Assembly (NCBI GenBank): GCA_032718475.1
Contig: JAUCBJ010007127.1
Coordinates: 1-50,163, forward strand
Source of the DNA: Nemertoderma westbladi
Taxonomy: Eukaryota; Animalia; Xenacoelomorpha
Reading direction: 5' to 3'
DNA: 50,163 nucleotides
The notes below the pieces were generated by a model. It was given only the letters and a program-made list of their open reading frames with translations, was not told the origin of the DNA and did not search any database. The translations under genes and the position numbers were made by a program. Positions 25,013-40,086 of this stretch are shown one piece after another (the stretch's first letter is position 1; every line of letters starts with the position of its first letter).

Positions 25013-25018
25013 CATTCA
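25013..25018. other. Left target-site duplication CATTCA
   Basis: Identical to 40081-40086, directly abutting the TIR. Confidence 0.93.
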
Positions 25019-25890
25019 AGTAGTAGGGTCTTGGCCGGCTCTGTGACACTTGGACCTCACTGACACCCATTGGGTGTCATATGACACCCAATTATCACCC
25101 TATGGGTGTCATTGGGTGTCATTGGCGCCAGACTGTCTGGGTGACACCTCCCAATTAGGCTAATTAGACCCTAATTGACAGGTGTCATCAATTAATTAGT
25201 TCAATTAAACCCTAACAGGTGTCATATGACTCCTAATTAGGGTTTAATTGATTATCCTAATTAATCAGACTGATTAGCGCCCTGACACACAATGGGTCAT
25301 CAGTTAGGTCCAAGTGTCACAGAGCCGGCTCAAGAGGGTGTCATAAGTGACACCGCAGCTCTTTTATTCATTAATATCTATTTATTTATATTTAATTTTA
25401 ATTAATTATTTGCATTTTATTTTATTCGTATTTAATTCTAAATTAATTATTCATTTGTACTTTATGGGTATACAGCTCCCTTACTGGTAACTAATTACTC
25501 CAGACAGCTTTATCGTTGACCTTTGACCCCCCAATTAGCTTTAACCAAGCAACAGCATATTAATGATAGTTGTATCCAAGCGCCCCTGCCCCCCACCCCG
25601 TGACAGCTCTGATTACTAATTACTCGTACATATATCCAACCGCCTGTAGTTCCATAGTCTGCCGCTAGAGGGCGTATTATCTGAAAATTAACATATTATA
25701 CATATTTAACTATTTATTTGTACCTAATTTTAATTAATTATTTGTATTCTATTTGACTTTATTTATTCATTTGTACTTTATTTTAAATTAATTAATTGTA
25801 TTACTTTTACTTTATATATTGATTTCTATTTTTAGATTAATTTGGTTTTATATTACCAATGAGATCACTATGACATAATGTCTATTTTTA
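25019..25890 (+). repeat. Left terminal inverted repeat (872 bp)
   Basis: Reverse complement of 39209-40080; same length; no mismatches in the segments I compared by eye. Confidence 0.95.
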
Positions 25891-26044
25891 GCTCTATGGT
25901 TTATAGATCCCTTATCGTTAACTTTATAATCTTTCCTCTCGCGGCCCCTTTGTCTTCGTTATTCAATGGCGCCATTCTGTCTACCATTGAATAACATTGG
26001 GCAATCATTATCTCGCCTGATGTAACGTCATCAAAGCTGCTCTC

Positions 26045-26149
26045 TGATTGGTTTAATTATACAGTCTTTTCTCCCTCCTGTTCCCTGATTGGCTAACCCA
26101 TTCTAGCCCCCTCTATAATAGCCCCCGTTCACCACATTCCCAATCATTG
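26045..26149 (+). promoter_or_regulatory. Putative Pol II promoter of the 569-aa ORF
   Basis: Two inverted CCAAT boxes (CTGATTGG at 26045 and ~26084), TATAATA at 26114, Inr-like TCATTG with its A 32 nt after the TATA start. Confidence 0.55.
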
Positions 26150-26239
26150 TCTCTTTGTTTTCCTGAAAAGTTTTAATTATTTTCGTAAAAGTATTTATTT
26201 ATTTTTATTTCCTAAACGAGTTACCGGTACACAATCACG

Positions 26240-27949
26240 ATGGCACATTCAGAAATCAGCTATTCAAGCAACGATCTGGTTTGCAACGAAAATCAGTTTA
26301 TGCTACAAGACAACTCGTTTGGTCTATATTTCGATTCGGCGAACAAACTCTTCCCGTTAACGATAAATACAACCTTAAACCAACCCATCCCGATTCCGGC
26401 AAACTACGCGCACTTTATTTTCCGCGCCTGCTACGAACTTCACGATGGACAATATCAAACCCTCGACGATAATAAACTTCATTCCTCCAACCACGGTTTC
26501 AAACTTTTAAAAAGGGACAACAAAATCACGTTCAATCTAACTACTTCGCCCGAGACGTTTACGATTCCAACTAGTATAGTCGATTTTATTCGAGAAAACA
26601 TCAACCAAGATGTGGCAAATCGTCTACTGGGTTTAACCACTCTCGTAACCTCCTTCTTCTCCGATGATCGCTTATTTGATTTTCATAGTATCGCAAACTC
26701 GATTCTTCTTCTCATCTGGAACTCGTCGACTCCGACCGAGGAAGAGGAGACTCGTTTCTTTAAACTTTTCGACAAGGATGTTCTCGCTTTCGGCGAGAAA
26801 TTGAATGAGCTCACATGCTTTTTCGCCAATAAAGTCTCCTATTACTTTGGATTCAATTATAGAGTTGGCACCTATGGAAGTATTAACCCAGTGAAACCAC
26901 TCGAGTTAATAAAGCTGGAAGACACGGTAAACAGTTCATGGATCACATTTTCCGTCGCCTGCGCCAATTTATTTCAACAATATGTAAACATCTGTCGCCC
27001 TTTTATTAATCCTACTACTCACCTTGTCCTAAAACCGGGTAATTGGGTTGCTTTTGACTATTGCACTTTTGGGTTTGTTACAAATATTCGGAACGAGCGC
27101 AATTTAGCGATCACCAATGGCTACGAGGTTGACGATGGAAAGGCTATTGTTTCTTCTAGGGGCATGATTCTTCTTACACCAAGCGAGGTCGGCGAATTGA
27201 AATGGTTCGATTCAACCGTCGAGGATAGTGAATGTGTCTGCTACGATGAACTTAACGTATACAAAGACAACATTTCCGAGCGAATATCGTTACAAAGTTG
27301 TATCAGTGATTCAGAAATTGATTTACAGATAACCGAGAGAAAATTTAACGAATCCTTTACTATAGCTAACACGATTCAAGCGCGCGAGGCTCTAATCAGA
27401 TTCAAGGCTATGGCTATACAATTTGCTTTCAAACCAAAGCAGATTACGATCCCCAATCATCAGCGCTATCTCATAAATAGCAATATCGCAGCCTTTATCT
27501 ATAAGTTCAAATCCGAAAAATATGTTGGTATCTGGCCCATTTTAATGAAAGACGAAGAGAATACCACTTTTCAGTTCACCAACGGTCTCAATATTAGGGG
27601 CAGCGATTTTCTCGCGATAAATATAACCAACCCACCCAACTCTCACTACTATCTCAGTCCTTACATTCATATCGAGAACAAACCAGCAGAAATTATATTC
27701 ACCAATACGAAAAATACCAACACTATCACCCTATCCAACGACTTTACCATCGCGCGCCTTTTCGAATTACTAAAACGTTCTCTCAGAGAAGGCATCTTTC
27801 TCCCGCAGCAAACACACCTTAATCTATTTCACCCCCCAAGAAAAGGCTATCTCAACAATCTATTAAAGAGAAAATTATCGCAACCATTAATAGTATCGGA
27901 CCCTAAAAGGGTTAAACCAGTTATTCTCGGAGGCCAGCAACCCTATTAA
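26240..27949 (+). CDS. 569-aa element protein with putative tandem PC4-like (ssDNA-binding) repeats and C-terminal NLS
   Basis: Long intact ORF with promoter and ATTAAA downstream. aa 409-460 and aa 261-322 align by eye with the PC4 core. KRK...PKRVK is NLS-like. The ORF is secure; the fold is inferred. Confidence 0.6.
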   Translation: MAHSEISYSSNDLVCNENQFMLQDNSFGLYFDSANKLFPLTINTTLNQPIPIPANYAHFIFRACYELHDGQYQTLDDNKLHSSNHGFKLLKRDNKITFNLTTSPETFTIPTSIVDFIRENINQDVANRLLGLTTLVTSFFSDDRLFDFHSIANSILLLIWNSSTPTEEEETRFFKLFDKDVLAFGEKLNELTCFFANKVSYYFGFNYRVGTYGSINPVKPLELIKLEDTVNSSWITFSVACANLFQQYVNICRPFINPTTHLVLKPGNWVAFDYCTFGFVTNIRNERNLAITNGYEVDDGKAIVSSRGMILLTPSEVGELKWFDSTVEDSECVCYDELNVYKDNISERISLQSCISDSEIDLQITERKFNESFTIANTIQAREALIRFKAMAIQFAFKPKQITIPNHQRYLINSNIAAFIYKFKSEKYVGIWPILMKDEENTTFQFTNGLNIRGSDFLAINITNPPNSHYYLSPYIHIENKPAEIIFTNTKNTNTITLSNDFTIARLFELLKRSLREGIFLPQQTHLNLFHPPRKGYLNNLLKRKLSQPLIVSDPKRVKPVILGGQQPY

Positions 27950-28199
27950 TATAAACAGTCTCTATTTATTAAAAACTGTTCTGATTATATCTTTTGTTAT
28001 TGTTGATGTTCTTATATTATTTATTATTAATGTTGTTGGTAAATTATTTATCCGTTGTTGTTATATTATTTAATATTGATGTTGTCGGTAAATTATTTAT
28101 TCTTGTTTCCCCATATTGTTTAAAAATATAAGATGTTTAACCGGTTATTTTTCATTTTTCTCTACTAGTTAATCTATTCTATGAGAGCGAGCCATGAAG

Positions 28200-29900
28200 T
28201 AAGTGAGTCTCAGCATACCATTAATGACCCCTACTGCTTCTTCGTAATCAATTTGAATGTTAACCCCTAAATAAACAGCCAATCCCTATGAATTCTTTAC
28301 AAACTCGATATGCAAGTTGTTTATCAGAGCTGATTTAATTAAAATATATTATTTAGCGATTTTCGTGATTAATGCTATAAATTATATTCACCAAAATGAA
28401 AATATCCACCCTATTACTCTATCCATCAAGCGATGCTTTGTATGTATTGATGGCGAGCAAAGTTTTCAGGGCGACCACCTCTAGGCTGTAAGTACGCTGT
28501 TCTGTCCTATCATAGACACTCTGTCTTTTAGATGCTTCACTGTTAATATTAAGCCGTTAGCCATGGCGCCGCTGATAAGCCGCGAGGATATTCAAAGGCT
28601 TTGGTTTGATTGTTCGTACTATGGATAGTTCAATGAAATCATGAAAGGGAGGGCCGCATGGGGTTGAAAGTGATAGCCCCTCATCCTTATTTTCCCGAGA
28701 AATTCTTAAAGGCGACTATGAATAGAACAATGAAACATTAAAGGGAGGACCGCATATGATGGGAAATGATAGGCTTTCAACTGCCTTTGCCCAGATTTGT
28801 GTAAGTTCGAGGGAGGATGTAGAGGAAAATATACTCGTAGCTTTAATGCCCCATTTGATTAAAGTAGAGCAAATTTAGCTTTCACCTAAGGGTTATCACT
28901 CCTTGCAACTGCAAAATTTAAAATTCTATCTATGATGTATTCACTATAACTCGTTTGCTGATATTATTTCATCGCGAAATTAAAAGCATCTGCTATCACT
29001 ATTATTATAGTATATTATCTAAACTAGTGACACCGAGTTGGAACAGATAGGATAATTGCACTTTGTTATGTTTTAGGTTAGTAGCTTTAATCATAATACT
29101 ACCGGGCTATAAAATGTTGTATAAATATCGGGGGGAGGGTCATAATGACCCCGATCGAGGTGGGGAATCGAAACTATGACAATCTGTATATCCTATTTTG
29201 TGTTTACTTTTTATATTTTCCACGAAGCGAGAGCAAAAATTTAAATTTCCTGAAAATTTCTGAGTCTCAGCACACCATTAATGATCCCTATGCCTTCTTC
29301 GTAGTCAATTTGAATGATAATCCCTAAATCCCTATATTTTTCATAAAAACCCTCAAAACTTTACAAATTTTGAAAAATCGGCTAATATAAAATGCCCCAT
29401 AGTTTCAATAAAAATGGTACTCGAAATGTGAATACAATGCTTCCACTTCATCAAGGTGAAACCTTAACGAAAACTATCCTGATCCACACTCGATTTGTAA
29501 ATACATTGCATCCACTTTTACCCAGATGGAGCATTTGTATTGTATTTAAGATTTATTTTCATGACTCACATAATAACCCCAATACTACCGGCCTATAAAA
29601 TGTTGTACAAACACCGGGGAGGGTCATAATGACCCTGGTCGGGGGTAGGGAATCGAATCTATGACAATCTGTATATCCTATTTTGTGTTTACTTTTTATT
29701 TTTTCCGTGAAGCGACGGCCAAAATTTAAAATTCCTGAAAATTTCGCGGATAGAGAATTATAAATATAATTGGTGAGCATAGTGCTACGCGAAGGCTCCA
29801 TGGCAGATGTATTTTAGCTATGGACTCGTATATCCATTTTACTCTACTATAGCCAGACTGTCTTTGAGGTGCCCCGTTAGCCTTGGCGCCGCTAAATCTG
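28200..29900. repeat. Internal non-coding region of the element built from imperfect duplications
   Basis: 28204-28270 resembles 29261-29328; 29093-29250 resembles 29581-29745; 28513-28580 resembles 29854-29895. Confidence 0.75.
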
Positions 29901-29994
29901 CATGAGGGCCGGCCGGTAAGCGAGATATCTCTATTGCTAATAAGCTTGAGGGCCCAAATAAGGCTAACATTCATATGCTATATCCCATAGTTAT

Positions 29995-30080
29995 TACCGA
30001 TATATAATTACTACTGGCTCCTAACGACTTATCACTGTACCGATATATAATTACTACTGGCTCCTAACGACTTATCACTG
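29995..30080. repeat. Perfect 43-bp tandem duplication upstream of the acidic-ORF promoter
   Basis: TACCGATATATAATTACTACTGGCTCCTAACGACTTATCACTG x2 (29995-30037, 30038-30080). Confidence 0.95.
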
Positions 30081-30143
30081 GGAGCCCTTTAATTAAAGCC
30101 GCCGCTCGTTGAAACTGTTGCGTTGCTCCCTCTGCGTTGATGC

Positions 30144-30181
30144 TATATAAACCGAGTTGGGACCTTCATTCGTCATCAGTT
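30144..30181 (+). promoter_or_regulatory. TATA box plus initiator for the acidic ORF
   Basis: TATATAAA at 30144-30151 and TCAGTT at 30176-30181; AATAAA at 30718 after the stop. Confidence 0.65.
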
Positions 30182-30266
30182 TTGACATCGAATAATTCAC
30201 AAGTTATTGTAAACTTTTTTCATTTTTAAACTTTTGCGTTTACAATTTATCGAGTTACTATTTATC

Positions 30267-30686
30267 ATGGCTTCCACCACCAGCACCCAGCTAGCCGCCT
30301 CCGTGACACCGGTCTCCACCACAGCTACACCCGTCACCACCATATCCAACGCTACCATCACCATCACATCCAGAAGCGTCGGTACACAGACCACGGAGAG
30401 CAGGTCGGAAGCGGTAACTCCCTATGGCCGTTTTATGAGGGACCAGGAAGAGGAAATGGCGTGGGAGGAAGATTTGTTTGATCGGGAGCTCGAGATTCGA
30501 GCACTGGAGGAGGAGAGGTTGGAGCGACTTCGGACCTCCTCCAACTGGTACGATCAATATTTGTATCAGGAATTTCTCGAGGAAGAGATAGCGGCGGCTG
30601 AGGAGAGCAGGTATAAACATCCCTTTCCCCAGGAAAACTGGGAGGAAACAGAAGATTTCAGGGAGGAACCATGGTGTAAGTTTTAA
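30267..30686 (+). CDS. 139-aa S/T-rich then acidic/aromatic protein with an LC8-type TQT motif
   Basis: ATCATGG start context at 30267, GC-richer than flanks, own TATA/Inr and polyA signal; RSVGTQT; E/D-rich C-terminal half studded with W/F/Y. Confidence 0.7.
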   Translation: MASTTSTQLAASVTPVSTTATPVTTISNATITITSRSVGTQTTESRSEAVTPYGRFMRDQEEEMAWEEDLFDRELEIRALEEERLERLRTSSNWYDQYLYQEFLEEEIAAAEESRYKHPFPQENWEETEDFREEPWCKF

Positions 30687-31164
30687 TTAATACTAACATT
30701 CCTTTATAATATGATATAATAAAATAGGTTAAAGCAATAAGCAGATTGAGTAGAAATTAATTTGAGTAATTACAATAATTATAAAGTTATACGAATTACC
30801 AAGATGATTATAAAGCAATTACATAAATAATAAATTATTATTTACTTATAAAATAAATTATTTCTTTTCTCATAGGCTAAATTATATTCTATCGCTGAGG
30901 GCTCAGAGTTAGTTTTCGCTGGAGCGAGCGAGATGGGAGGATTGGGAGCGCAGTAGAGGGGTGACAGTTGGACCTCACTGTGAAAACGAATAAATTAGTG
31001 TTACTAATGGGGGGCTGATGAGTTATAATTCTATGGAGTGGAGAAAAAAGAGTCATAAAGAACTTTATTTGTTTAATTATACTTTAGCTATCCATACTTA
31101 TTTTATTGTTTCTACGGTATAGGCCACCAGAAAACCCAGATTTGTACAATTGTGAACAATTTTA

Positions 31165-31302
31165 TCAAATGTGTACCAGTGTAATGTAATGTTGTTGAAC
31201 GGGACAATTGAACATAATTTTCCGCCAAAGGAAAAAATTAATAGTTTTGAAACGTTTAGTAATCTGGAAACTCTCTATAGTTTGCAGCGAACTGTTACTC
31301 AT
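31165..31302 (-). CDS. Possible 45-aa micro-ORF
   Basis: TTTTCAG|CTATA-ATG acceptor context; MSNSSLQTIESFQITKRFKTINFFLWRKIMFNCPVQQHYITLVHI; minus-strand AATAAA near 31100 and 31065. Confidence 0.25.
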   Translation of the reverse strand: MSNSSLQTIESFQITKRFKTINFFLWRKIMFNCPVQQHYITLVHI

Positions 31303-32446
31303 TATAGCTGAAAATGTGATAAGGATTTTGTTTACCTTTATTAAAGTGTGCGGTTAATAGTGTCTAGTAGGCCCATAGTTAGTGATGTTAAGGCATCTTC
31401 TGGTGTTTCTCTGTGCCCTCTCGGTGTCAGACTAATGGCGCGACATCTCCCTACACTAAATTAATTATTCAATGGTCTAGCCTCCTCCATTCACATATCC
31501 CATCCACTCCTATACACTCCATGAACCTCCATGTGGTCTTGTATGTAGTTCTCTCTCTACCATTATAGCCCATGTCCGCAATGTTACGCCCGAGGGGGCT
31601 CTCTCGTCTACCTGATATCAGACATACAGGCCCACCGCACACAAAGCCTTTGTCGATCCCAGCAAGTTAGCCTCCTGCTGTGTGATCTTTTATATCCAAA
31701 TAATGTCTGATGGTTGCGCATAAAAATTTTGCTTACTATTACACAATTATATTAGTATTAGGACTATTTATCCATAATAATTATATTAGAATTATAAATG
31801 TATTTACCCCACAATATTTATTACTATTAGATGTATTTATTCAAGAAATTATATGTTTTTATAATATACTTTGGAAAATTAGTCGACTAAGTCATAATTT
31901 TTAAAACTTTAAATACGGGTTGAGTTATTTTATAAAGTTAAGAAGAATGAACCAATAGAGGGAGCCTGAAGTCTAATCTCTTGGCCTTTACTCCCATTAA
32001 CTCCCAAGGTTGCATACTATCACTATAGCTGGGAGAGTCGAAGCTAGAGTATATGCTAGAGTTAACCAAGAGCTAGGAAAAAGAATAATGCTCTTCTAGG
32101 GTCCAAACTCACGACCTTCTAATTAGAAAACTAAGCAAATAATCAGCTTGAAGGCCTTAGACCCTTAATCGGAGGCATCGAGCAGCCAATGAGAGAGCAG
32201 ATGCGAGTACAGTGGTAAAGCCCATCCATAGTGAGATAGCGTTGCACTAGCTCTCAAGGATAGTTATACTCACCATTCAAATATCCCTCGCAAACCAGAG
32301 TCCCCCAACATCTAAAGTATTACACTTCAATGCAAAATATATAATGCAATATAACTCGAATATTTCTGTTTTTTATAATATAAATAATGATTGTAGCATA
32401 AATTTATAATTTCACATAAATATAATGTGAAAATTCACTTTAATAT

Positions 32447-32950
32447 AGAGTAACTAACTAAACATGTAATAGGATATACAGATGGTCATAGGTTCGACCC
32501 ATTCTCGTATCCCGTTTTATGGAAAATATAAAAAGTAAACATAGAATAACTAGAGTAACTAAACTAAACATAAAATAGGATGAACAGGTGGTCACATGTT
32601 CGATCCCTACTCGCGACCATTATAAATCCAACACAAAATAAGTTAAACCAGGGTTCGAATCCTAATCATGAAAATATAAAAAGTAAACATAGAATAACTA
32701 GAGTAACTAAACTAAACATAAAATAGGAAAAACAGAAGGTCACGGGCTCAATCCCTACTCGTATCCCGTTTTATGGAAAATAAACAGGAGGTCATAGGTT
32801 CAATCCCTACTCGCGACCATTATAAATCCAACACAAAATAAGATAAACCAGGGTTCGAATCCTACTAATGCAATTATAAAAAGTGGGTAACACGGATGGT
32901 CACGGATTCAAACCCTACTCACGGAAAAATAAAAACCAACACAAAATAAA
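32447..32950 (+). repeat. Complex tandem array carrying seven Pol III B-box/tRNA T-arm-like motifs
   Basis: GGTTCGACCC 32491, GTTCGATCC 32598, GGTTCGAATCC 32652, GGCTCAATCC 32745, GGTTCAATCC 32797, GGTTCGAATCC 32852, GGATTCAAACC 32904, separated by A-rich repeated spacers. Confidence 0.8.
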
Positions 32951-32987
32951 TAATATAGTAAACTTTCATGTATATCATAGTAAATAG

Positions 32988-33503
32988 CTAATTTAATAAT
33001 AAAGTTTGTAAAATAGATAATGATTCGGGGAATTCACCGGCTGGACACATGGAAACGATTTTATTACTATGAAATACACTGAAATATGCACGTCCTATAT
33101 ATATTCTAATCGCGCAAAATAATTCGGGGGTATAGCTAATAAATATTGCTTTATTATTAAATGTATGATGTCCACATTTTTTCATTAATAATTTAAAATT
33201 AACACTTGGAAAAATAATAGTTCGTGTTTCGGTATTAAGTTTCAAATTTTGTAATTGCATACCGATAGTTTGTTTTAAATAAAGCAATTCACTAGCTAAA
33301 TTATTGCACAGGCCTACAATTGTTACTGCGCCGCTGGGAAATAGCATTATAGTTGAATCGTCACCTTTGTAGATAAACATGTTTGGTTTTAAGCATCTTT
33401 GACCTGTAATTTGCTGTGAAATTTTCTCTAGTTCAAATTTGGCAATGTTTTTTCCGGTGAACTGTTTATTGGTTATTTCTATTTTGTTGTTCAATTTCTT
33501 ATT
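32988..33503 (-). CDS. TBP-fold (TATA-binding-protein-like) protein, terminal exon without a 5' ATG
   Basis: Two TBP-type repeats: STIMLFPSGAVTIVG resembles TALIFSSGKMVCTG; SYTPELFCAIRI..FSVFHSNKIV resembles SYEPELFPGLIY..LLIFVSGKVV; IEITN...FELEKIS resembles PQLQN...LDLKTIA. The frame opens immediately after acceptor ATTTTTCTAG (33513-33504). Confidence 0.72.
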   Translation of the reverse strand, partial: NKKLNNKIEITNKQFTGKNIAKFELEKISQQITGQRCLKPNMFIYKGDDSTIMLFPSGAVTIVGLCNNLASELLYLKQTIGMQLQNLKLNTETRTIIFPSVNFKLLMKKCGHHTFNNKAIFISYTPELFCAIRIYIGRAYFSVFHSNKIVSMCPAGEFPESLSILQTLLLN

Positions 33504-33517
33504 CTAGAAAAATAAAA

Positions 33518-36500
33518 TTAAATTCTAGTAGGGGGGATTACTACTCGTTTCGCCGGTCTAACAAGCTTAGTGCTATAGTGTCCATATGGTTTGCTGCTAT
33601 ATTTACTACTCCAATATGATTTCGTATCCCAGAGCGTTAGTGCCTTCTTATAGACATGACCAGTAAAAATTTGATGCTTTCTAGAAGTGAAGGTAGAGTT
33701 ATAGCGGAAGAGCATTGCCTCGTTTTCAAAACAGTCTGCATAATCCTCGTGTGTTAGTTGCTTAGCGACAACCGATCTAGATACTCCTTTGGCGGTTTTC
33801 TTGATTGGGGCATCATAGGATTGAAAACTGTAGACCTTTGGTTTAAGGAAAACCCACTGTTTATACTGCAAACCGCAGCTCTCATCTTTTACGAAGCCGA
33901 GAGCCGCTTTGTGTTTAATGGTATAGAGTGGATGTGTTGTACTGTAGTTGGAAGTATCTAGGAAACCACCCTCAAACATTGCCCGTAGAAAGGTTAGCTG
34001 TGGTGTATTAGTTACGCTTAGCATTAGAGAATCCGTGTCACCGGCTAGACAGCGAATCTGGCAATCCAGTTTTTGTTCTAGAGGCTTCAGTTTGTTGTAA
34101 AATAGGTCGTACATCTGTAGCTTAGATAGATCTAGTATAGTGCAACCGATGAACACGCCCTGATTTAGGCAAACAGCCTCTTTAGTGAAAGTATGACCAC
34201 TCAAGTTGGGGGTAAATACAACAAACGATTCGTGATTGGGCTTGGCTAAGAGCAAATCGCATTGTTCGTCGCTATTGCATAACCTGAAAGAAACGCGGTC
34301 TCTAACCTTTTGGAGGCATTTCCCATACAAGGCATTGTTCATCAACTTATAAAATAGGACCTCGAATGGGTTATTTGCCGACTGTCTTTTATTTGTATTA
34401 AAACTAATGTAGTCCTTGAAAATATATTTTTGTGAGAAAGAGTAGACCCTATGTACTTGTGTAAGTTTAAGACCGAGCTTCAAATAGAGTTGAAGTAGCT
34501 TAATATGGATACCGTATTCAACCTTATTAAACTGATGTAGTAGTAGCTTAGTACAGGTATCGTTGTATGGTCTACAGGTGGCCCTATCGGTGAGATTGTA
34601 ATGCTCCCAAAGATCTTCCATGTATTCGCTAAGAAAGGATTTAGGGACTGACATCTTCTCCGCTCCTAGAGGCAGATCGGCGGTCAAATCATGAATTTCT
34701 TTCGGATAATGTAGATCAACTATGCAATAATAACCAGTATCCCCACTCGCGTCTACTGTAGCTAGGTCTATGGGGGTAGTTACGAGTTTAATATTAGCGT
34801 AGGGAAGTTTCTGGCTCAGGGCGCAGCCGTAAAGGTTATTCGCATCGATGGGAATTAGATATTTCTCGGGGAGACTGGAGTCATAGTCGGGTTTATCGGG
34901 GATATTTGCGTCTACGGAATGTGTATTCAAGAATACTAGACCACCCCTAATATTTGTTTCAAAGTCCGAGTAGATGGAAGCGTCTGATAGTAATTGAATT
35001 TCTGATTGCGTGAATTTCAGCGCCGCGTCGTAAGTTAATCCAGGGGCAGTGAAGTACATTACGGGCTCGAGTCCATAATTAGTAAGACAGAGGGATCGGA
35101 ACTGCTCGAAAGTATCAGCCAATAGGGTAACATCTAGAACCAAATAGCCAATCATATAGTCGAAGATTGTTAGACAGTTTAATTCATCCCAAGTAGTAAG
35201 CGCGCGCTGATAGTTTTCTGCGCTACATTGTTCCAATTTGAGATCATTATAGAAGCTTTCTAATGGGGGGAGTGTAGTTTCGTGTAGGTTTGAAATATTT
35301 TGAATATAGGAATATGGGAATACACCCTTGTTTTTTATTGTGTTATCGCTAATGTTGGGATAGAGTTGGGTCATTTGAGCTAGTGTATGGGGTATGGCTG
35401 TTGCTAGGTTACTGTTATTTTTAGTGAGATAACTACTAAGATTATCTAGGCTGGCAGTCATAAACTGATAGGAATCTAGAAAATTAATGGAGATACTTTC
35501 TTTAGCGTTGGCTGTTGGTGTACTCGGATCGATTGGAAAGCTAACTTTAAGGTGAATATAAGTTTCGGTGTTTTTTGGTATTACACTCATTTTCCAGTGT
35601 GTTCTAGAACTATCGGTCATTCCTTCTTTTAGTAGTAAATGCATATCGAATTTCCTCAAGTTATGAAATATAATATAAAAATTATTCCGTTTTAGGGAAA
35701 GTTTCCTGTTGCAGCTGACGCAAGCAGCCCCTCGATACTCCCCGCTATAATGATCATGATCGCGGACTTTGGTGCTGAGATTGTCATTGAGGTTTAAATT
35801 ATGCGAATCGGGGGTTAAATTACAGTTGCAGACGTAGCATTGTGTAGCGTTATTAAAGTCAGTTTGCTGGCTAGTAGTGAGTTGCATGGGGGCGTGTGTG
35901 TTTGTACTAGAAATGGACCAATCGTATAACTCCCTACAATGACTTTCCATAGCGGTTAGAAAGTCGCGCATTATGTGGTTACTGCCATCGTCACGGAAAA
36001 TTTGAACATCTGTTTTAGGAGGGTTAATTAATTTTTGATTTGGTACTGTATAAAAGGCTGCCGCGCTAGCTATATGTTTCTGTGGGAGTTTAATATTGTT
36101 TGTAGGTTCTAGAATAGTTTCAATGTCGGCGTATATACAGAAAGGTGGGGATAGAGTCTTATCGTACCTGTCAAATTTAACCAAGAGATTTTCGGGCATA
36201 TACTCGAGCTGGCGTTTACCCGTATAGCAGCGCTCTCGATGTTCTCCCAGTGATTTGTCAGTGTAAAAGGCTCTGAGACAGCGTTCGCAGTGCGTCTTGT
36301 TGCCGGTAGAAGTAGCTTTAGTATTTATTAATCTATCTATGTTAGTAATAGCTACATAGTGGGCAGGGTTTTTGGTTGTGGCTTCGATAAATAATAAGTT
36401 TAGTACAGTTTTACCGGAACAGTGCGCGCTATCTGGTTGACTTAAAATGGAGAGTTCTTCCGTATTACTCCAATAAAGAAGGTTTATACAGTATATAGGG

Positions 36501-37573
36501 TTGGCTTTCAGAAACTGGGGAATACCAGTTACTCTGTCCACCGGGAAACTTAAATTGGAAAAATCAAACATGTTTAGAAAAGGGGTATACGTTGAAATTC
36601 TTTTGATATTATTTTGTTTTCTATCAATTTTCTTATAATTTGCGGCGGCCAATACTGCGTATTTAAAGCATTCCCCCAGCGGGCAGTCTACGCTTACGGT
36701 ACATTTTTTATTTAATAATAATTTAGAATTATTGAAGCCTTGACCCTTTAAATAGGGGTTGCGTTGGGACCGCGCAATCTCAATAGTTATTCGCTCGATG
36801 GCTATTATGCGCCAACCCGAGCCGAGGCAGAGAAACACGCTTAACAGTTGATCGATACGATTGACGGCGCTAGAAAACCAGTTATTAAAGTCGCTATTAT
36901 TTAGAATTTGATTATTGTTACCGCTAGATTTAAAACAGAATGATTCAATTTGAAATCCCTCGCTCGTTTCACGCTCCATTACGATGTTGATTGTAAGCCA
37001 GACTCTTAAAAAAGTTCCCATGGCACTACGTAAATGGCTACTAACGTGTTCTTGAATGTGTGGAAAATTTTCATTTAATGTTAATTCTGCGTCGAGTCTT
37101 GTTTCTGCGAGGTCGTTGTTATAGGTAAACAGTCGTCCGTGTGCGCTTCCGTTGGAGGGGGGTTGAAATGGATTGTTTGGGGAAATAGAATCTCGTGAAG
37201 TTGAAGGTTCATTATTGGAGCCGCCGCCGCCGACTTGTTCTGGAGTAGAGTTGATGGGGGATGAGTGGGAGGTAGTCGGAGTTTTGCGTTTCCGCGAAAA
37301 AAGTCGAGTGTAGCATTCATGCTCAGAAAAGGATGACAGGGTGAGCGAATCCCCGCAGCGGCAATCGGCTGGCTCGTTTACGTAACTAAATCCTGTTCCC
37401 CCCTGAGGACACGAAGCAAGATGGCCAATCAGCGTCTTCTTTTCCGAAGACCAAGTCGGACAGCAGTCGCATCGATATTGCGCGAAATGAGTTTTAATAT
37501 GGCGAGATAAATTATCACTCCGCGTCTCTTTGTCGCAGATGGGGCAGCTGACTTTATTGGTTGATCTTGGCAT
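33518..37573 (-). CDS. Protein-primed family B DNA polymerase (Polinton pPolB with endonuclease VII/HNH-like insert), 1351 aa
   Basis: Exo motifs IYADIE, FHNLRKFD, YLVLDV; KGVFPY; Pol motifs DANNLYG, KLMNNALYGK, GDTDS, PKVY, AKG. N-terminal C2H2 finger, terminal-protein GSGW motif, vOTU-like CFKYAV..HY, and CxxC..VRDHDHYSGEYRGAACxxCN. Confidence 0.96.
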   Translation of the reverse strand: MPRSTNKVSCPICDKETRSDNLSRHIKTHFAQYRCDCCPTWSSEKKTLIGHLASCPQGGTGFSYVNEPADCRCGDSLTLSSFSEHECYTRLFSRKRKTPTTSHSSPINSTPEQVGGGGSNNEPSTSRDSISPNNPFQPPSNGSAHGRLFTYNNDLAETRLDAELTLNENFPHIQEHVSSHLRSAMGTFLRVWLTINIVMERETSEGFQIESFCFKSSGNNNQILNNSDFNNWFSSAVNRIDQLLSVFLCLGSGWRIIAIERITIEIARSQRNPYLKGQGFNNSKLLLNKKCTVSVDCPLGECFKYAVLAAANYKKIDRKQNNIKRISTYTPFLNMFDFSNLSFPVDRVTGIPQFLKANPIYCINLLYWSNTEELSILSQPDSAHCSGKTVLNLLFIEATTKNPAHYVAITNIDRLINTKATSTGNKTHCERCLRAFYTDKSLGEHRERCYTGKRQLEYMPENLLVKFDRYDKTLSPPFCIYADIETILEPTNNIKLPQKHIASAAAFYTVPNQKLINPPKTDVQIFRDDGSNHIMRDFLTAMESHCRELYDWSISSTNTHAPMQLTTSQQTDFNNATQCYVCNCNLTPDSHNLNLNDNLSTKVRDHDHYSGEYRGAACVSCNRKLSLKRNNFYIIFHNLRKFDMHLLLKEGMTDSSRTHWKMSVIPKNTETYIHLKVSFPIDPSTPTANAKESISINFLDSYQFMTASLDNLSSYLTKNNSNLATAIPHTLAQMTQLYPNISDNTIKNKGVFPYSYIQNISNLHETTLPPLESFYNDLKLEQCSAENYQRALTTWDELNCLTIFDYMIGYLVLDVTLLADTFEQFRSLCLTNYGLEPVMYFTAPGLTYDAALKFTQSEIQLLSDASIYSDFETNIRGGLVFLNTHSVDANIPDKPDYDSSLPEKYLIPIDANNLYGCALSQKLPYANIKLVTTPIDLATVDASGDTGYYCIVDLHYPKEIHDLTADLPLGAEKMSVPKSFLSEYMEDLWEHYNLTDRATCRPYNDTCTKLLLHQFNKVEYGIHIKLLQLYLKLGLKLTQVHRVYSFSQKYIFKDYISFNTNKRQSANNPFEVLFYKLMNNALYGKCLQKVRDRVSFRLCNSDEQCDLLLAKPNHESFVVFTPNLSGHTFTKEAVCLNQGVFIGCTILDLSKLQMYDLFYNKLKPLEQKLDCQIRCLAGDTDSLMLSVTNTPQLTFLRAMFEGGFLDTSNYSTTHPLYTIKHKAALGFVKDESCGLQYKQWVFLKPKVYSFQSYDAPIKKTAKGVSRSVVAKQLTHEDYADCFENEAMLFRYNSTFTSRKHQIFTGHVYKKALTLWDTKSYWSSKYSSKPYGHYSTKLVRPAKRVVIPPTRI

Positions 37574-38283
37574 CTTGAATCTAGAAAAATATGTTGATTA
37601 TTTATAAAAATAAAAAATACTGTATACGTGCTAAAAATAAAGTAAAACAGTAGGTATTAATTGGTTACTAGGCAACAATACTGTGTTTGTATAGTTAGGC
37701 CTATTGCTGTATTGTAGCAATCAGCCAGTGAAACATAAAGCAGACCGTCGGTAGTGTCTAGTGTGGAAGTGTTAGTGTACCAGCGGTCAGATAGTGGCGA
37801 TAACCAAGACACAATAGCGATGGCAGTTATTATTCGTGGAAAGAGGGTCTATAAACAGCAGTCAGTCAGTGCAGTAGTGCTAGTGATATAGTCTGCTACA
37901 AGTCAGACGTACCGGTAGCGTTAACCAATAGAAATCAACGATAGGCTTAGCTAATCGCTGTGTGAGATCTCAGTTAGTCAGTAGGATATATAGTGAAAAC
38001 TGCAGTATTCATTGTTGTTCAATAGGGTCTATATCGCTACTATGATGGCATTAGGCTAACTCGAATGATGGGTTATCGGTAGTTGGGTAGACAGGCAGAT
38101 AGACAGATGTAGGCCTATTGATCGAATGCTTCGATCACGGTTTAGGCTATCGGTACCACCGCAGTCTGACAGTAATTAATAATGAGCCTACTGCAATACT
38201 GTTGTACCGGTAGACATTAAATGTAAATTGTTTGCTAGCGGCATCGATAGTACCGTCAGATGGTGGAAGGGAAGGCAGATTTT

Positions 38284-38720
38284 ACTTACGGTGTTAGTAA
38301 ATATTCACGGAAAGAAGAAGTTTGGACGTTCGTGAGGAAGTTGGTTGACGTGGACGATGAGAGAATTTATTAACCGATAGAGCGGAATGATATCGGAAAT
38401 TAGAAATAATGGAATATTACGCGGCGGATATGCGGAAAGTTTGTTGTCGACGATGAGCAATAGCACGGCGAAATGACAATAATACAACTCTACAAGTGGG
38501 TTGTTGACTGATGATAACAAATAAATATTCTTAATAAATAATATTAAATTCGAAAACAAAATAATGGTAAATGATGTTAATTGTAAATTGCAATTGAATT
38601 AATGACCTAATATATTGATGGGGACTTATTAAATAGCAATTCGGTTAGTAAGGGAGGCCCTTGTCTCTTAAATGAGCCAATCAGAACGCAGCAGCAGAAA
38701 TGAAGCCCGCTGATTGGCTG
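38284..38720 (-). promoter_or_regulatory. Putative promoter and non-coding leader exon of the minus-strand (pPolB) transcription unit
   Basis: CCAAT boxes at ~38677 and ~38713; minus-strand TATTTAA starting at 38635; Inr-like TCATT with A at 38603 (32 nt); ATG-free stretch down to donor GTAAGT at 38289-38284; acceptor ATTTTTCTAG at 37590-37581. Confidence 0.5.
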
Positions 38721-39208
38721 TTCATGCATAAGCGGTAACCAGGGCAACTTCTCGCGTTGATGAATCTATTAGAAAACTCTTGTAAGCATCTTGACTAATT
38801 ATATTGAGTTGGCTGTATAACAGAAGCAGGTCTGGTGCAAAGGAAAGGGATTAGTAGAGAGGAATGCGTGATTAGAGGCGCTTCATTGTTATGATACGGG
38901 TTGCCTGGATATAGGAAAGGGACAAAGCGACGTCGGCTATAGTGGGAACAATGGAGGGCCGCTTGAGCATTAGCCTTGGGCGATATACGGATTTGCTGTA
39001 GTCAAGGCCGCGATGGGATTATTAGTGAGTCATCGGGGGGGAGGCTAACAGACGGGACCGCTCATTTATATTTGCCTTGGGGTATACGTGTAGATTCACT
39101 GCCTGTCGTATCTAGTTAATGAATAATGATGGCAGAGGAGGGGCCCCCGCCGATGAACGTAGTTGATAGTTGCCAGTAGGGAGCCGTATACCATAGCCAT
39201 TATAAAGT

Positions 39209-40080
39209 TAAAAATAGACATTATGTCATAGTGATCTCATTGGTAATATAAAACCAAATTAATCTAAAAATAGAAATCAATATATAAAGTAAAAGTAATA
39301 CAATTAATTAATTTAAAATAAAGTACAAATGAATAAATAAAGTCAAATAGAATACAAATAATTAATTAAAATTAGGTACAAATAAATAGTTAAATATGTA
39401 TAATATGTTAATTTTCAGATAATACGCCCTCTAGCGGCAGACTATGGAACTACAGGCGGTTGGATATATGTACGAGTAATTAGTAATCAGAGCTGTCACG
39501 GGGTGGGGGGCAGGGGCGCTTGGATACAACTATCATTAATATGCTGTTGCTTGGTTAAAGCTAATTGGGGGGTCAAAGGTCAACGATAAAGCTGTCTGGA
39601 GTAATTAGTTACCAGTAAGGGAGCTGTATACCCATAAAGTACAAATGAATAATTAATTTAGAATTAAATACGAATAAAATAAAATGCAAATAATTAATTA
39701 AAATTAAATATAAATAAATAGATATTAATGAATAAAAGAGCTGCGGTGTCACTTATGACACCCTCTTGAGCCGGCTCTGTGACACTTGGACCTAACTGAT
39801 GACCCATTGTGTGTCAGGGCGCTAATCAGTCTGATTAATTAGGATAATCAATTAAACCCTAATTAGGAGTCATATGACACCTGTTAGGGTTTAATTGAAC
39901 TAATTAATTGATGACACCTGTCAATTAGGGTCTAATTAGCCTAATTGGGAGGTGTCACCCAGACAGTCTGGCGCCAATGACACCCAATGACACCCATAGG
40001 GTGATAATTGGGTGTCATATGACACCCAATGGGTGTCAGTGAGGTCCAAGTGTCACAGAGCCGGCCAAGACCCTACTACT
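39209..40080 (-). repeat. Right terminal inverted repeat (872 bp)
   Basis: Reverse complement of 25019-25890; ends CCCTACTACT. Confidence 0.95.
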
Positions 40081-40086
40081 CATTCA
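40081..40086. other. Right target-site duplication CATTCA
   Basis: Identical to 25013-25018. Confidence 0.93.

What the first reader, a model, noticed from the sequence alone, without database searches (positions are those of the whole stretch)
32988..33503. Element-encoded TATA-binding-protein-fold gene directly downstream of pPolB
The ~170-aa frame shows the two-repeat TBP pattern (ITN/LEKI, MLFPSGAVTIVG, SYTPELF, SVFHSNKIV). By-eye alignment keeps three of the four DNA-intercalating Phe positions of TBP. It is far too diverged to be host TBP. TBP homologs are established in large nucleocytoviruses but are not a core Polinton gene, and I do not know a description in this context. Inference: it may redirect host Pol II/III to the element's own TATA variants (TATAATA, TATATAAA, TATTTAA) or act as a decoy.
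Basis: partly seen in the sequence, partly recalled or inferred. Interest (0 to 1): 0.85.

Follow-up and report, generated by a model that had tools for sequence, protein, structure and literature searches.

The report
Startless TBP gene in capsid-less Polinton
A virus-like jumping element in an animal genome has no detectable capsid or integrase genes, yet keeps an open, very divergent gene related to TATA-binding protein that lacks an early start codon, is likely spliced onto the DNA-polymerase transcript, and would help control transcription of the element's family.

Summary
The TBP call holds. The 171-codon frame (32988-33503, minus) scores 35.6 bits against a profile of 31 TBP-family proteins seeded from a Polinton gene (shuffles at most 8.3), and its alignment-guided model matches TBP best in three fold searches. 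Three of four intercalating Phe are kept, but six second-repeat residues invariant in all 31 relatives are lost. It lies in a young 15,062-bp Polinton-type element (879-bp perfect TIRs, 6-bp TSD) with intact pPolB and two orphan ORFs, and no detectable integrase, capsid, ATPase or protease. Best reading: an inherited Polinton TBP, spliced from the pPolB unit, acting on family promoters (0.4); a decaying relic is the main rival. No RNA data. The three TATA variants share no private box. TBP is labelled on a PolB element in Starrett 2021, two other Polintons found here carry it, and this scan found Maverick TBPs before on other DNA. New here: the stripped element, the missing start, the degenerate second lobe.

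The parts
32988..33503 (-). TBP-like frame, 171 codons plus stop; first in-frame ATG at codon 42
33504..33520 (-). Splice-acceptor-like site (pyrimidine tract plus YAG) overlapping the pPolB stop; the exon would begin at 33503 in phase 0 (inferred)
   Evidence: 10 of 12 pyrimidines, among the top 7 of 186 YAG sites on this strand in 32000-38700
33518..37573 (-). Protein-primed family B DNA polymerase, 1351 aa, intact, N-terminal C2H2 zinc finger; acceptor-like YAG 7 nt before its ATG
   Evidence: PF03175 E 5.8e-18, zf-C2H2 E 0.001; relatives 33-39% identical; context
36692..36700 (-). Donor-like ACC|GTAAG site in phase 0 after pPolB codon 292; candidate source of a start for the TBP exon (inferred)
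   Evidence: one of only two GTAAG sites on this strand in 38700-33504
38284..38720 (-). pPolB promoter-like region (two CCAAT boxes, TATTTAA at 38635, initiator at 38605), ATG-free 314-nt leader, donor-like site at 38289
   Evidence: ATG-free leader p = 0.027 in shuffles
25019..25897 (+). Left terminal inverted repeat, 879 bp, begins AGTAGT; 6-bp TSD CATTCA at 25013-25018
39202..40080 (-). Right terminal inverted repeat, 100% complementary to the left; TSD copy at 40081-40086
26240..27949 (+). Orphan ORF, 569 aa, behind CCAAT boxes, TATAAT (26114) and initiator (26144)
   Evidence: no hit in Pfam, NCBIfam, PDB or the Atlas; promoter
30267..30686 (+). Orphan ORF, 139 aa, Thr/Ser-rich then acidic-aromatic, behind TATATAAA (30144) and initiator
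32478..32949 (+). Array of seven B-box-like repeats just beyond the TBP stop; two inverted copies at 29164 and 29649
   Evidence: 19 matches in the window against 6.85 +/- 2.5 expected, 0 of 100 shuffles

Best explanation
The frame encodes a very divergent TBP-family protein, likely inherited from a complete TBP-carrying Polinton, likely expressed as a spliced exon of the pPolB transcription unit, and predicted to bind AT-rich promoter DNA and regulate promoters of its own element family. Shown: homology to TBP and to TBPs of complete Polintons; position inside a young TIR/TSD-bounded element; no early ATG; no TATA-plus-initiator site of its own. Inferred steps: (1) host Pol II fires the CCAAT/TATTTAA promoter at about 38605; (2) splicing to the acceptor at 33504 brings in a start, because codons 8-41 match the first TBP strand and helix and so must be translated; the donor (pPolB codon 292, another exon, or a trans-spliced leader) is unknown; (3) the saddle binds and bends DNA with three Phe and one Asn, with altered or looser specificity because the second repeat has lost its Asn, Pro and Thr-Gly; (4) one stirrup Glu (E127) remains and might still contact TFIIB; (5) targets would be the two orphan-gene promoters here or, in trans, the virion genes of an autonomous helper that must also supply integrase.
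For: Profile, hhalign and Atlas agree on TBP. The model (pLDDT 77.4, pTM 0.65) has TBP as every listed row through rank 44 in PDB and the top five, Z 9.1-10.2 over 157-161 residues, among 48,161 chains. Polintons with integrase, ATPase and pPolB carry a TBP: L001 has it about 0.9 kb downstream of pPolB on the same strand, L082 has a cellular-like one, Pfam E 1.3e-36. The frame is open across both repeats despite a branch of 7.4 changes per column, which neutral decay would rarely allow (inference). TATA-plus-initiator geometry precedes the other three ORFs and not this one. Host introns in the window use the same GT-AG signals. Contigs from three studies cover the frame.
Against: No direct evidence of function or expression. 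Six residues invariant in 31 of 31 relatives are changed in the second repeat (N95T, E125T, P130C, G147N, T153C, G154P), and model confidence there falls to 56-79. GC3 is 0.25 against 0.42-0.63 in the other three ORFs. The three promoters share no private motif and look host-readable. There are no virion genes in this element for a late switch to act on. The acceptor's phase is partly built in, since the stop that bounds the frame is itself the YAG. The fold model was guided by 31 TBP-family rows; the single-sequence model failed (pLDDT 32.5). TM-scores are only about 0.5, rmsd about 5-6.
Confidence: 0.4

Rival explanations
1. A decaying relic. The gene served virion-gene transcription in a complete ancestor; after those genes went it lost its start and is drifting, carried along behind pPolB.
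For: No early ATG; six invariant second-repeat residues lost; low GC3; no virion genes left; one DNA joint in X1 removes the last 16 codons in some copies (32653 to 33036).
Against: The frame is open over 171 codons with both repeats in register although very far from any relative; identity to L001 is 25% for TBP and 31% for pPolB, so it has not drifted much more than the polymerase; perfect TIRs and TSD show a young copy.
Confidence: 0.25
2. A decoy or dominant-negative TBP. The better-kept first lobe occupies TATA DNA or host TBP partners, while the degenerate second lobe fails to assemble a productive complex, damping host or helper-virus transcription.
For: Lobe asymmetry: N12, L25, P40, F55, G58, G64 kept, while the second repeat loses one of two stirrup Glu and the Pro; PMC12529657 (passages) ties the acidic stirrup to TFIIB binding and the Pro to TATA specificity.
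Against: E127 and both second-repeat Phe are kept; KSHV ORF24 lacks the acidic stirrup residues yet activates, so their loss does not imply a decoy; no target identified.
Confidence: 0.15
3. A replication aid. The saddle bends the AT-rich tracts inside the TIRs to help protein-primed initiation, which would explain why it shares a unit with pPolB and survives the loss of virion genes.
For: Shares strand and predicted promoter with pPolB; TIRs hold repeated AT-rich tracts (families D5, D9); same side of pPolB in L001. Origin bending by host factors in adenovirus is recalled, not tested.
Against: In L082 the TBP gene lies far from pPolB on the other strand; 79 of 80 pPolB loci show no TBP, though only 14 hold 5 kb or more of flanking DNA; copies in X1 and X4 keep the TBP side while losing most of pPolB.
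Confidence: 0.1
4. A Pol III-side factor. The protein joins a TFIIIB-like complex at the B-box arrays beside the gene, making a small RNA or a chromatin boundary.
For: Seven B-box-like sites begin 40 nt beyond the stop, with two inverted copies 3 kb away; TFIIIC sites act as boundaries in fission yeast (PMC4502379, PMC7474672; search listing only).
Against: No tRNA gene or Rfam match; no such cluster in L001, L081, L082, L084 or any other of the 85 loci; no clear A box by eye.
Confidence: 0.07

Closest known systems
Polinton/Maverick (adintovirus, MELD) elements with a TBP-like gene: label 'TBP' in the Fig. 5 legend of PMC8502044; L001, L081, L082 found here
   Same: pPolB, long TIRs with AG..CT ends, 6-bp TSD, and a stand-alone core-sized TBP-family gene; 25% identical to the L001 protein over 168 columns.
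   Different: No detectable integrase, capsid, ATPase, protease or pX; the L001, L081 and L082 TBP frames have an ATG ahead of the first strand and keep the second-repeat residues that this one has lost. The figure itself was not visible, so which element carries the label is unknown.
Cellular TBP family (Pfam PF00352; eukaryotic TBP, archaeal TBP)
   Same: Two-repeat saddle; N12, F55, G58, G64, F129 invariant with archaeal TBPs L083 and L085.
   Different: 15-20% identity, below the Pfam cut-off, first Phe missing, second-repeat Asn, Glu, Pro, Gly, Thr-Gly missing; mobile-element context.
Beta/gamma-herpesvirus TBP mimics (KSHV ORF24, EBV BcRF1) with the TATTWAA late box (PMC12529657, passages)
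   Same: Virus-encoded TBP fold with a remodelled DNA face; the pPolB promoter here has a TATTTAA box; U58 and BcRF1 appear in the fold search (E 4.6e-4, 5.5e-3).
   Different: ORF24 is a large multi-domain protein in a six-protein complex and needs all four Phe; this is a bare core with three, no partner genes, and TATTTAA occurs 8 times in the element.
Nucleocytovirus TBP homologues
   Same: Best viral fold matches (EsV-1-53 E 9.8e-8; Heterosigma virus TBP E 1.6e-6).
   Different: Those viruses mostly carry their own RNA polymerase or further transcription factors (recalled); this element has none.

Membership tests
TBP family (PF00352) | Profile score above the Pfam gathering cut-off | tested here: not met
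   18.8 bits against 22.9; linked through an intermediate profile at 35.6 bits that itself matches 35 PDB TBP sequences
TBP family (PF00352) | Two-repeat saddle fold | tested here: met
   Alignment-guided model; TBP top; model guided by TBP-family rows
TBP family (PF00352) | Four intercalating Phe | tested here: not met
   F55, F129, F144 kept; first position K39/P40. The 31 seed relatives also lack it (Arg-Pro)
TBP family (PF00352) | Two base-contacting Asn, the specificity Pro, acidic TFIIB stirrup | tested here: not met
   N12 and E127 kept; positions 95, 125, 130 changed; roles from PMC12529657 passages
TBP family (PF00352) | Binds and bends TATA DNA; recruits TFIIB | not testable with these tools
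   needs biochemistry
Polinton/Maverick | Long TIRs, AG..CT termini, 6-bp TSD (features recalled) | tested here: met
Polinton/Maverick | Protein-primed PolB | tested here: met
Polinton/Maverick (autonomous) | Retrovirus-like integrase | tested here: not met
   22-locus profile, best E 0.086 inside the element; no tblastn hit. So a non-autonomous derivative, not an autonomous member
Adintovirus | Capsid proteins, packaging ATPase, protease | tested here: not met
   profiles from 3-12 ORFs each give no hit under E 0.3 inside the element; the 569-aa orphan is unassigned and was not folded, so a very remote structural protein is not excluded
Herpesvirus-type vTBP late switch | A private TATA-variant box shared by late genes | tested here: inconclusive
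   three different boxes here; TTAAGC before 5 of 14 genes in L001, but an equally strong TATAAA before 4 of 8 genes in TBP-negative L052

The most novel reading that the evidence does not exclude
The element makes a composite transcription factor by alternative splicing: the phase-0 donor after pPolB codon 292 joins the polymerase's zinc-finger and N-terminal domain to the TBP exon, so that zinc fingers supply the sequence specificity that the worn saddle has lost. A capsid-less, integrase-less Polinton would thus run its own promoter-selection system from one transcription unit.
Probability: 0.12. Interest if true: 0.8.

Novelty: new variant of a known kind. Interest (0 to 1): 0.5.

Why it matters
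How Polintons regulate their genes is barely described: of six searches joining Polinton/Maverick/adintovirus with TBP, TATA, promoter or splicing terms, the only statement on a TBP gene that I read was a figure label. A TBP kept in an element with no virion genes tests the late-switch idea from the other side: if it is expressed and under selection, Polinton TBPs do something besides switching on capsid genes, or act in trans on a helper. It would also be a natural TBP with a remodelled second lobe, and a case of spliced gene expression in a group usually annotated as simple ATG-to-stop ORFs, so such genes would be missed. If it is a relic, it is an ordinary step in the decay of a Polinton.

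Tried and rejected
Single-sequence searches found no relative: 0 of 55 candidates, 0 at E 0.001 among 1.84 billion representatives, only an E 2 hit in PDB, none in viral or metagenome contigs, none in NCBIfam. The family profile found nothing in viral contigs, nor did pPolB. The single-sequence fold failed. No genome is held, so no autonomous helper could be sought. No RNA holder listed; X5, a guessed RNA run of another organism, has no cover over the frame. Per-site variation among copies over the frame could not be obtained, so selection is untested. Complex of the TBP frame with ORF139 residues 50-139: no verdict, score 0.00. The tree (36 rows, none left out) does not place the protein. Read-through or a frameshift from pPolB rejected: the frames differ and an in-frame stop directly precedes the TBP frame. 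A start at codon 42 rejected as the sole start: it removes strand 1 and helix 1, where the Pfam match lies. No ATG-bearing micro-exon with a phase-0 donor was found between the promoter and pPolB (crude donor matrix from recalled frequencies; host donor scores were mis-indexed and redone). No internal TATA-plus-initiator site in the last 1.5 kb of pPolB. ORF569 resembles neither penton-like ORF of L001. A trans-spliced leader ending in AUG can supply starts in flatworms (PMC9851317, passages), but the host lineage was not established. PMC10748475 and 10.64898/2026.10.13.758929 gave no TATA passages (term searches). One supplement of PMC8502044 held as text had no TBP hit; figures and bioRxiv supplements were not visible and may name more TBP-bearing elements.

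Full report
Observation. The minus-strand frame 32988-33503 is open for 171 codons and carries the motifs quoted. It starts 14 nt after the stop of a 1351-aa protein-primed polymerase (33518-37573; PF03175 E 5.8e-18). A stop-free run this long arose in 1 of 300 shuffles of the element's non-coding DNA.

Setting. The frame lies in an element at 25019-40080 (15,062 bp) bounded by 879-bp inverted repeats that are 100% complementary, with AGTAGT ends and the 6-bp duplication CATTCA on both sides. These are Polinton/Maverick hallmarks (recalled) and show a young insertion. The flanks are those of an animal: fibrinogen-domain genes, retrotransposon fragments and a KH-domain gene with GT-AG introns (KH label by eye). 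The host lineage was not established. Besides pPolB and this frame the element holds only two long ORFs, of 569 and 139 aa, both without a match. tblastn with 14 ORFs of a complete relative hit only pPolB and this frame under E 0.1. Profiles of integrase, ATPase, penton-like, protease, pX and two capsid clusters built from the 80 pPolB loci gave a best E of 0.086 inside the element (one capsid cluster is anchored by a Pfam double-jelly-roll hit; the penton-like label is recalled). So this is a non-autonomous derivative with an intact polymerase. Contigs of three studies (X1, X3, X4, all organism A) cover the frame, with many variant sites along the element; depth is not used as copy number.

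Is it a TBP? Alone the protein is an orphan: 0 of 55 candidates, 0 hits among 1.84 billion representatives. Pfam gives TBP at E 0.0015, under the cut-off. In the Atlas all 30 feature hits are TBP clusters, best 0.95, though the recognition score of 1797 makes that weak evidence. The firm link came through pPolB neighbours. Among 1435 ORFs from 80 pPolB loci, one stood out, L001:7791-8399 (E 9.9e-6, next 0.48), 25% identical over 168 columns. It has 30 relatives among 61 candidates, all PF00352; their genomic context is unknown. A profile of those 31 proteins, without the window frame, matches 35 PDB sequences, all TBP (best E 1.1e-21), and scores the window frame at 35.6 bits; the next of 432 window ORFs scores 2.9, the best of 2000 shuffles 8.3, the reversed protein -0.7. 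hhalign gives 92%, E 5.4e-7. Folded alone the protein gave nothing (pLDDT 32.5); with the 31 rows it gave pLDDT 77.4, pTM 0.65 and two strand-helix repeats. Foldseek found 46 PDB matches at E 0.001 or better, every listed row through rank 44 a TBP, TM about 0.5. The Foldseek-free search of 48,161 chains put five TBP chains first (Z 9.1-10.2, 157-161 aligned, rmsd 4.6-5.3), the next at 7.8. Viral TBPs lead the viral library. The model was steered by TBP-family rows, so the fold matches are not independent of the profile result.

How worn is it? Against the 31 relatives and two archaeal TBPs, the first repeat keeps N12, L25, F55, G58 and G64; F129, F144 and E127 are kept in the second. The first Phe is absent here and in the 31 relatives. 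Six positions that are invariant in 31 of 31 relatives and present in the archaeal proteins are changed, all in the second repeat: 95 (Asn), 125 (Glu), 130 (Pro), 147 (Gly), 153-154 (Thr-Gly). PMC12529657 (passages) describes the four Phe, two Asn, the Pro and the acidic TFIIB stirrup as TBP's determinants. A tree of 36 rows gives the protein an end branch of 7.4 and no supported place: it is no recent copy of a cellular TBP, and its donor cannot be named. GC3 is low (0.25 against 0.42-0.63).

Distribution. L001 is a Polinton with pPolB, integrase, ATPase, pX and a capsid-cluster ORF, and its TBP lies about 0.9 kb downstream of pPolB on the same strand. A scan of genome contigs with the family profile returned 5 loci from 105 pattern matches: L082, a Polinton with pPolB, integrase, ATPase, protease and a cellular-like TBP far from pPolB; L081, a 4-kb fragment with a TBP beside two penton-like ORFs; L084, a broken fragment; and two archaeal TBPs. 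Only 1 of the 80 pPolB loci has a TBP (profile on all 1435 ORFs; Pfam on 232 candidate ORFs), but only 14 of them hold 5 kb or more outside pPolB. TBP is thus a recurrent accessory gene, not a core one.

Expression. A TATA-like box followed 20-27 nt later by an initiator occurs at three places in the 13.3-kb interior, one ahead of each ATG-bearing ORF (26114, 30144, 38635), and nowhere for the TBP frame (the three TATA variants were chosen after viewing). Two of the three have paired CCAAT boxes. Downstream of the pPolB promoter run 314 nt without an ATG (p = 0.027) to a donor-like site at 38289; an acceptor-like YAG lies 7 nt before the pPolB ATG. The TBP frame begins directly behind a YAG with 10 of 12 pyrimidines, among the top 7 of 186 such sites. 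Because the Pfam match and the first strand and helix lie in codons 8-41, a working protein must start upstream of codon 42. The leader has no ATG to give. Of 202 GT sites on this strand only two read GTAAG: the leader donor and one in phase 0 after pPolB codon 292. That would fuse the zinc-finger and N-terminal part of pPolB to the TBP; it may also be a chance product of Val-Ser codons, and its overall donor score is low (0.6 against 3.8 and 6.4 for two host donors). A trans-spliced leader AUG (known in flatworms, PMC9851317), a non-AUG start, or loss of the start are the alternatives. No RNA evidence was available. In DNA runs X1 and X4 a joint skips 3229 nt of pPolB, ending it near codon 278 and sparing the acceptor, but also removing the codon-292 donor, which does not favour the fusion.

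Mechanism. Most likely (0.4) the gene is a spliced, early product of the pPolB unit that binds AT-rich promoter DNA with changed specificity and regulates promoters of the family, here or on a helper. The case rests on homology, an open frame at great divergence, and the layout; binding, targets and expression are untested. Rivals are a decaying relic (0.25), a decoy (0.15), a TIR-bending replication aid (0.1) and a Pol III role at the adjacent B-box array (0.07).

What is known. PMC8502044 (term passages and section 10 read) and its preprint (passages) label a TBP-like gene in the legend of a figure of elements with adintovirus-like PolB; that section is on non-animal datasets and says nothing on function. 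The other papers listed were seen as listings only, apart from two term searches. Herpesvirus TBP mimics are well studied (listing; passages). Earlier notes of this scan report Maverick TBPs with matching boxes before virion genes in at least two other genomes; they are unchecked AI notes, gave me the late-switch reading as a lead, and show the theme is recurrent. No look-alike of this element was indexed.

Verdict. A real, very divergent TBP-family gene in a stripped Polinton: a new variant of a known kind. The distinctive points are its retention without detectable virion or integrase genes, the missing start with an acceptor in its place, and the worn second lobe. Interest 0.5.

Noticed in passing
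window 32478-32949 (+); 29164 and 29649 (-): Nine B-box-like repeats resembling the 3' half of a tRNA (resemblance by eye), in two inverted groups flanking ORF139; joints in DNA runs suggest the array varies in unit number among copies.
   Followed up: partly
window 33510-36740: DNA joint in two studies that removes most of pPolB, ends it near the conserved Gly277, and keeps the N-terminal domain and the TBP acceptor.
   Followed up: partly
window 26240-27949: 569-aa orphan with a basic, NLS-like C-terminus and a CCAAT/TATA/initiator promoter; no match anywhere searched; not folded.
   Followed up: partly
window 30267-30686: 139-aa orphan with an acidic-aromatic tail like an activation domain (by eye); differs at many sites from other copies and has no cover in X4.
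   Followed up: partly
window 26217 and 30251: CGAGTTAC lies 16-23 nt before the ATG of both orphan ORFs; only three copies in the 50-kb window.
   Followed up: no
window 32273, 32112-32073 (-): Strong donor-like and acceptor-like sites, one pair 40 nt apart, hint at a further spliced unit or a host repeat in 30700-32300.
   Followed up: no
window 18031, 23679, 44825: All three host genes inspected have an acceptor-like AG within about 20 nt before the ATG, as expected for 5' UTR introns or trans-splicing.
   Followed up: no
L001 (whole), L082 (whole), L081: Polintons with TBP genes; L081 and L082 sit in records titled as bacterial MAGs and are probably mis-binned eukaryotic-element contigs. 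TTAAGC precedes 5 of 14 L001 genes.
   Followed up: partly
window 25019-25330: The outer TIR holds many TGACAC/GTGTCA repeats and an internal 30-bp inverted repeat (I25), candidate binding sites at the ends.
   Followed up: no
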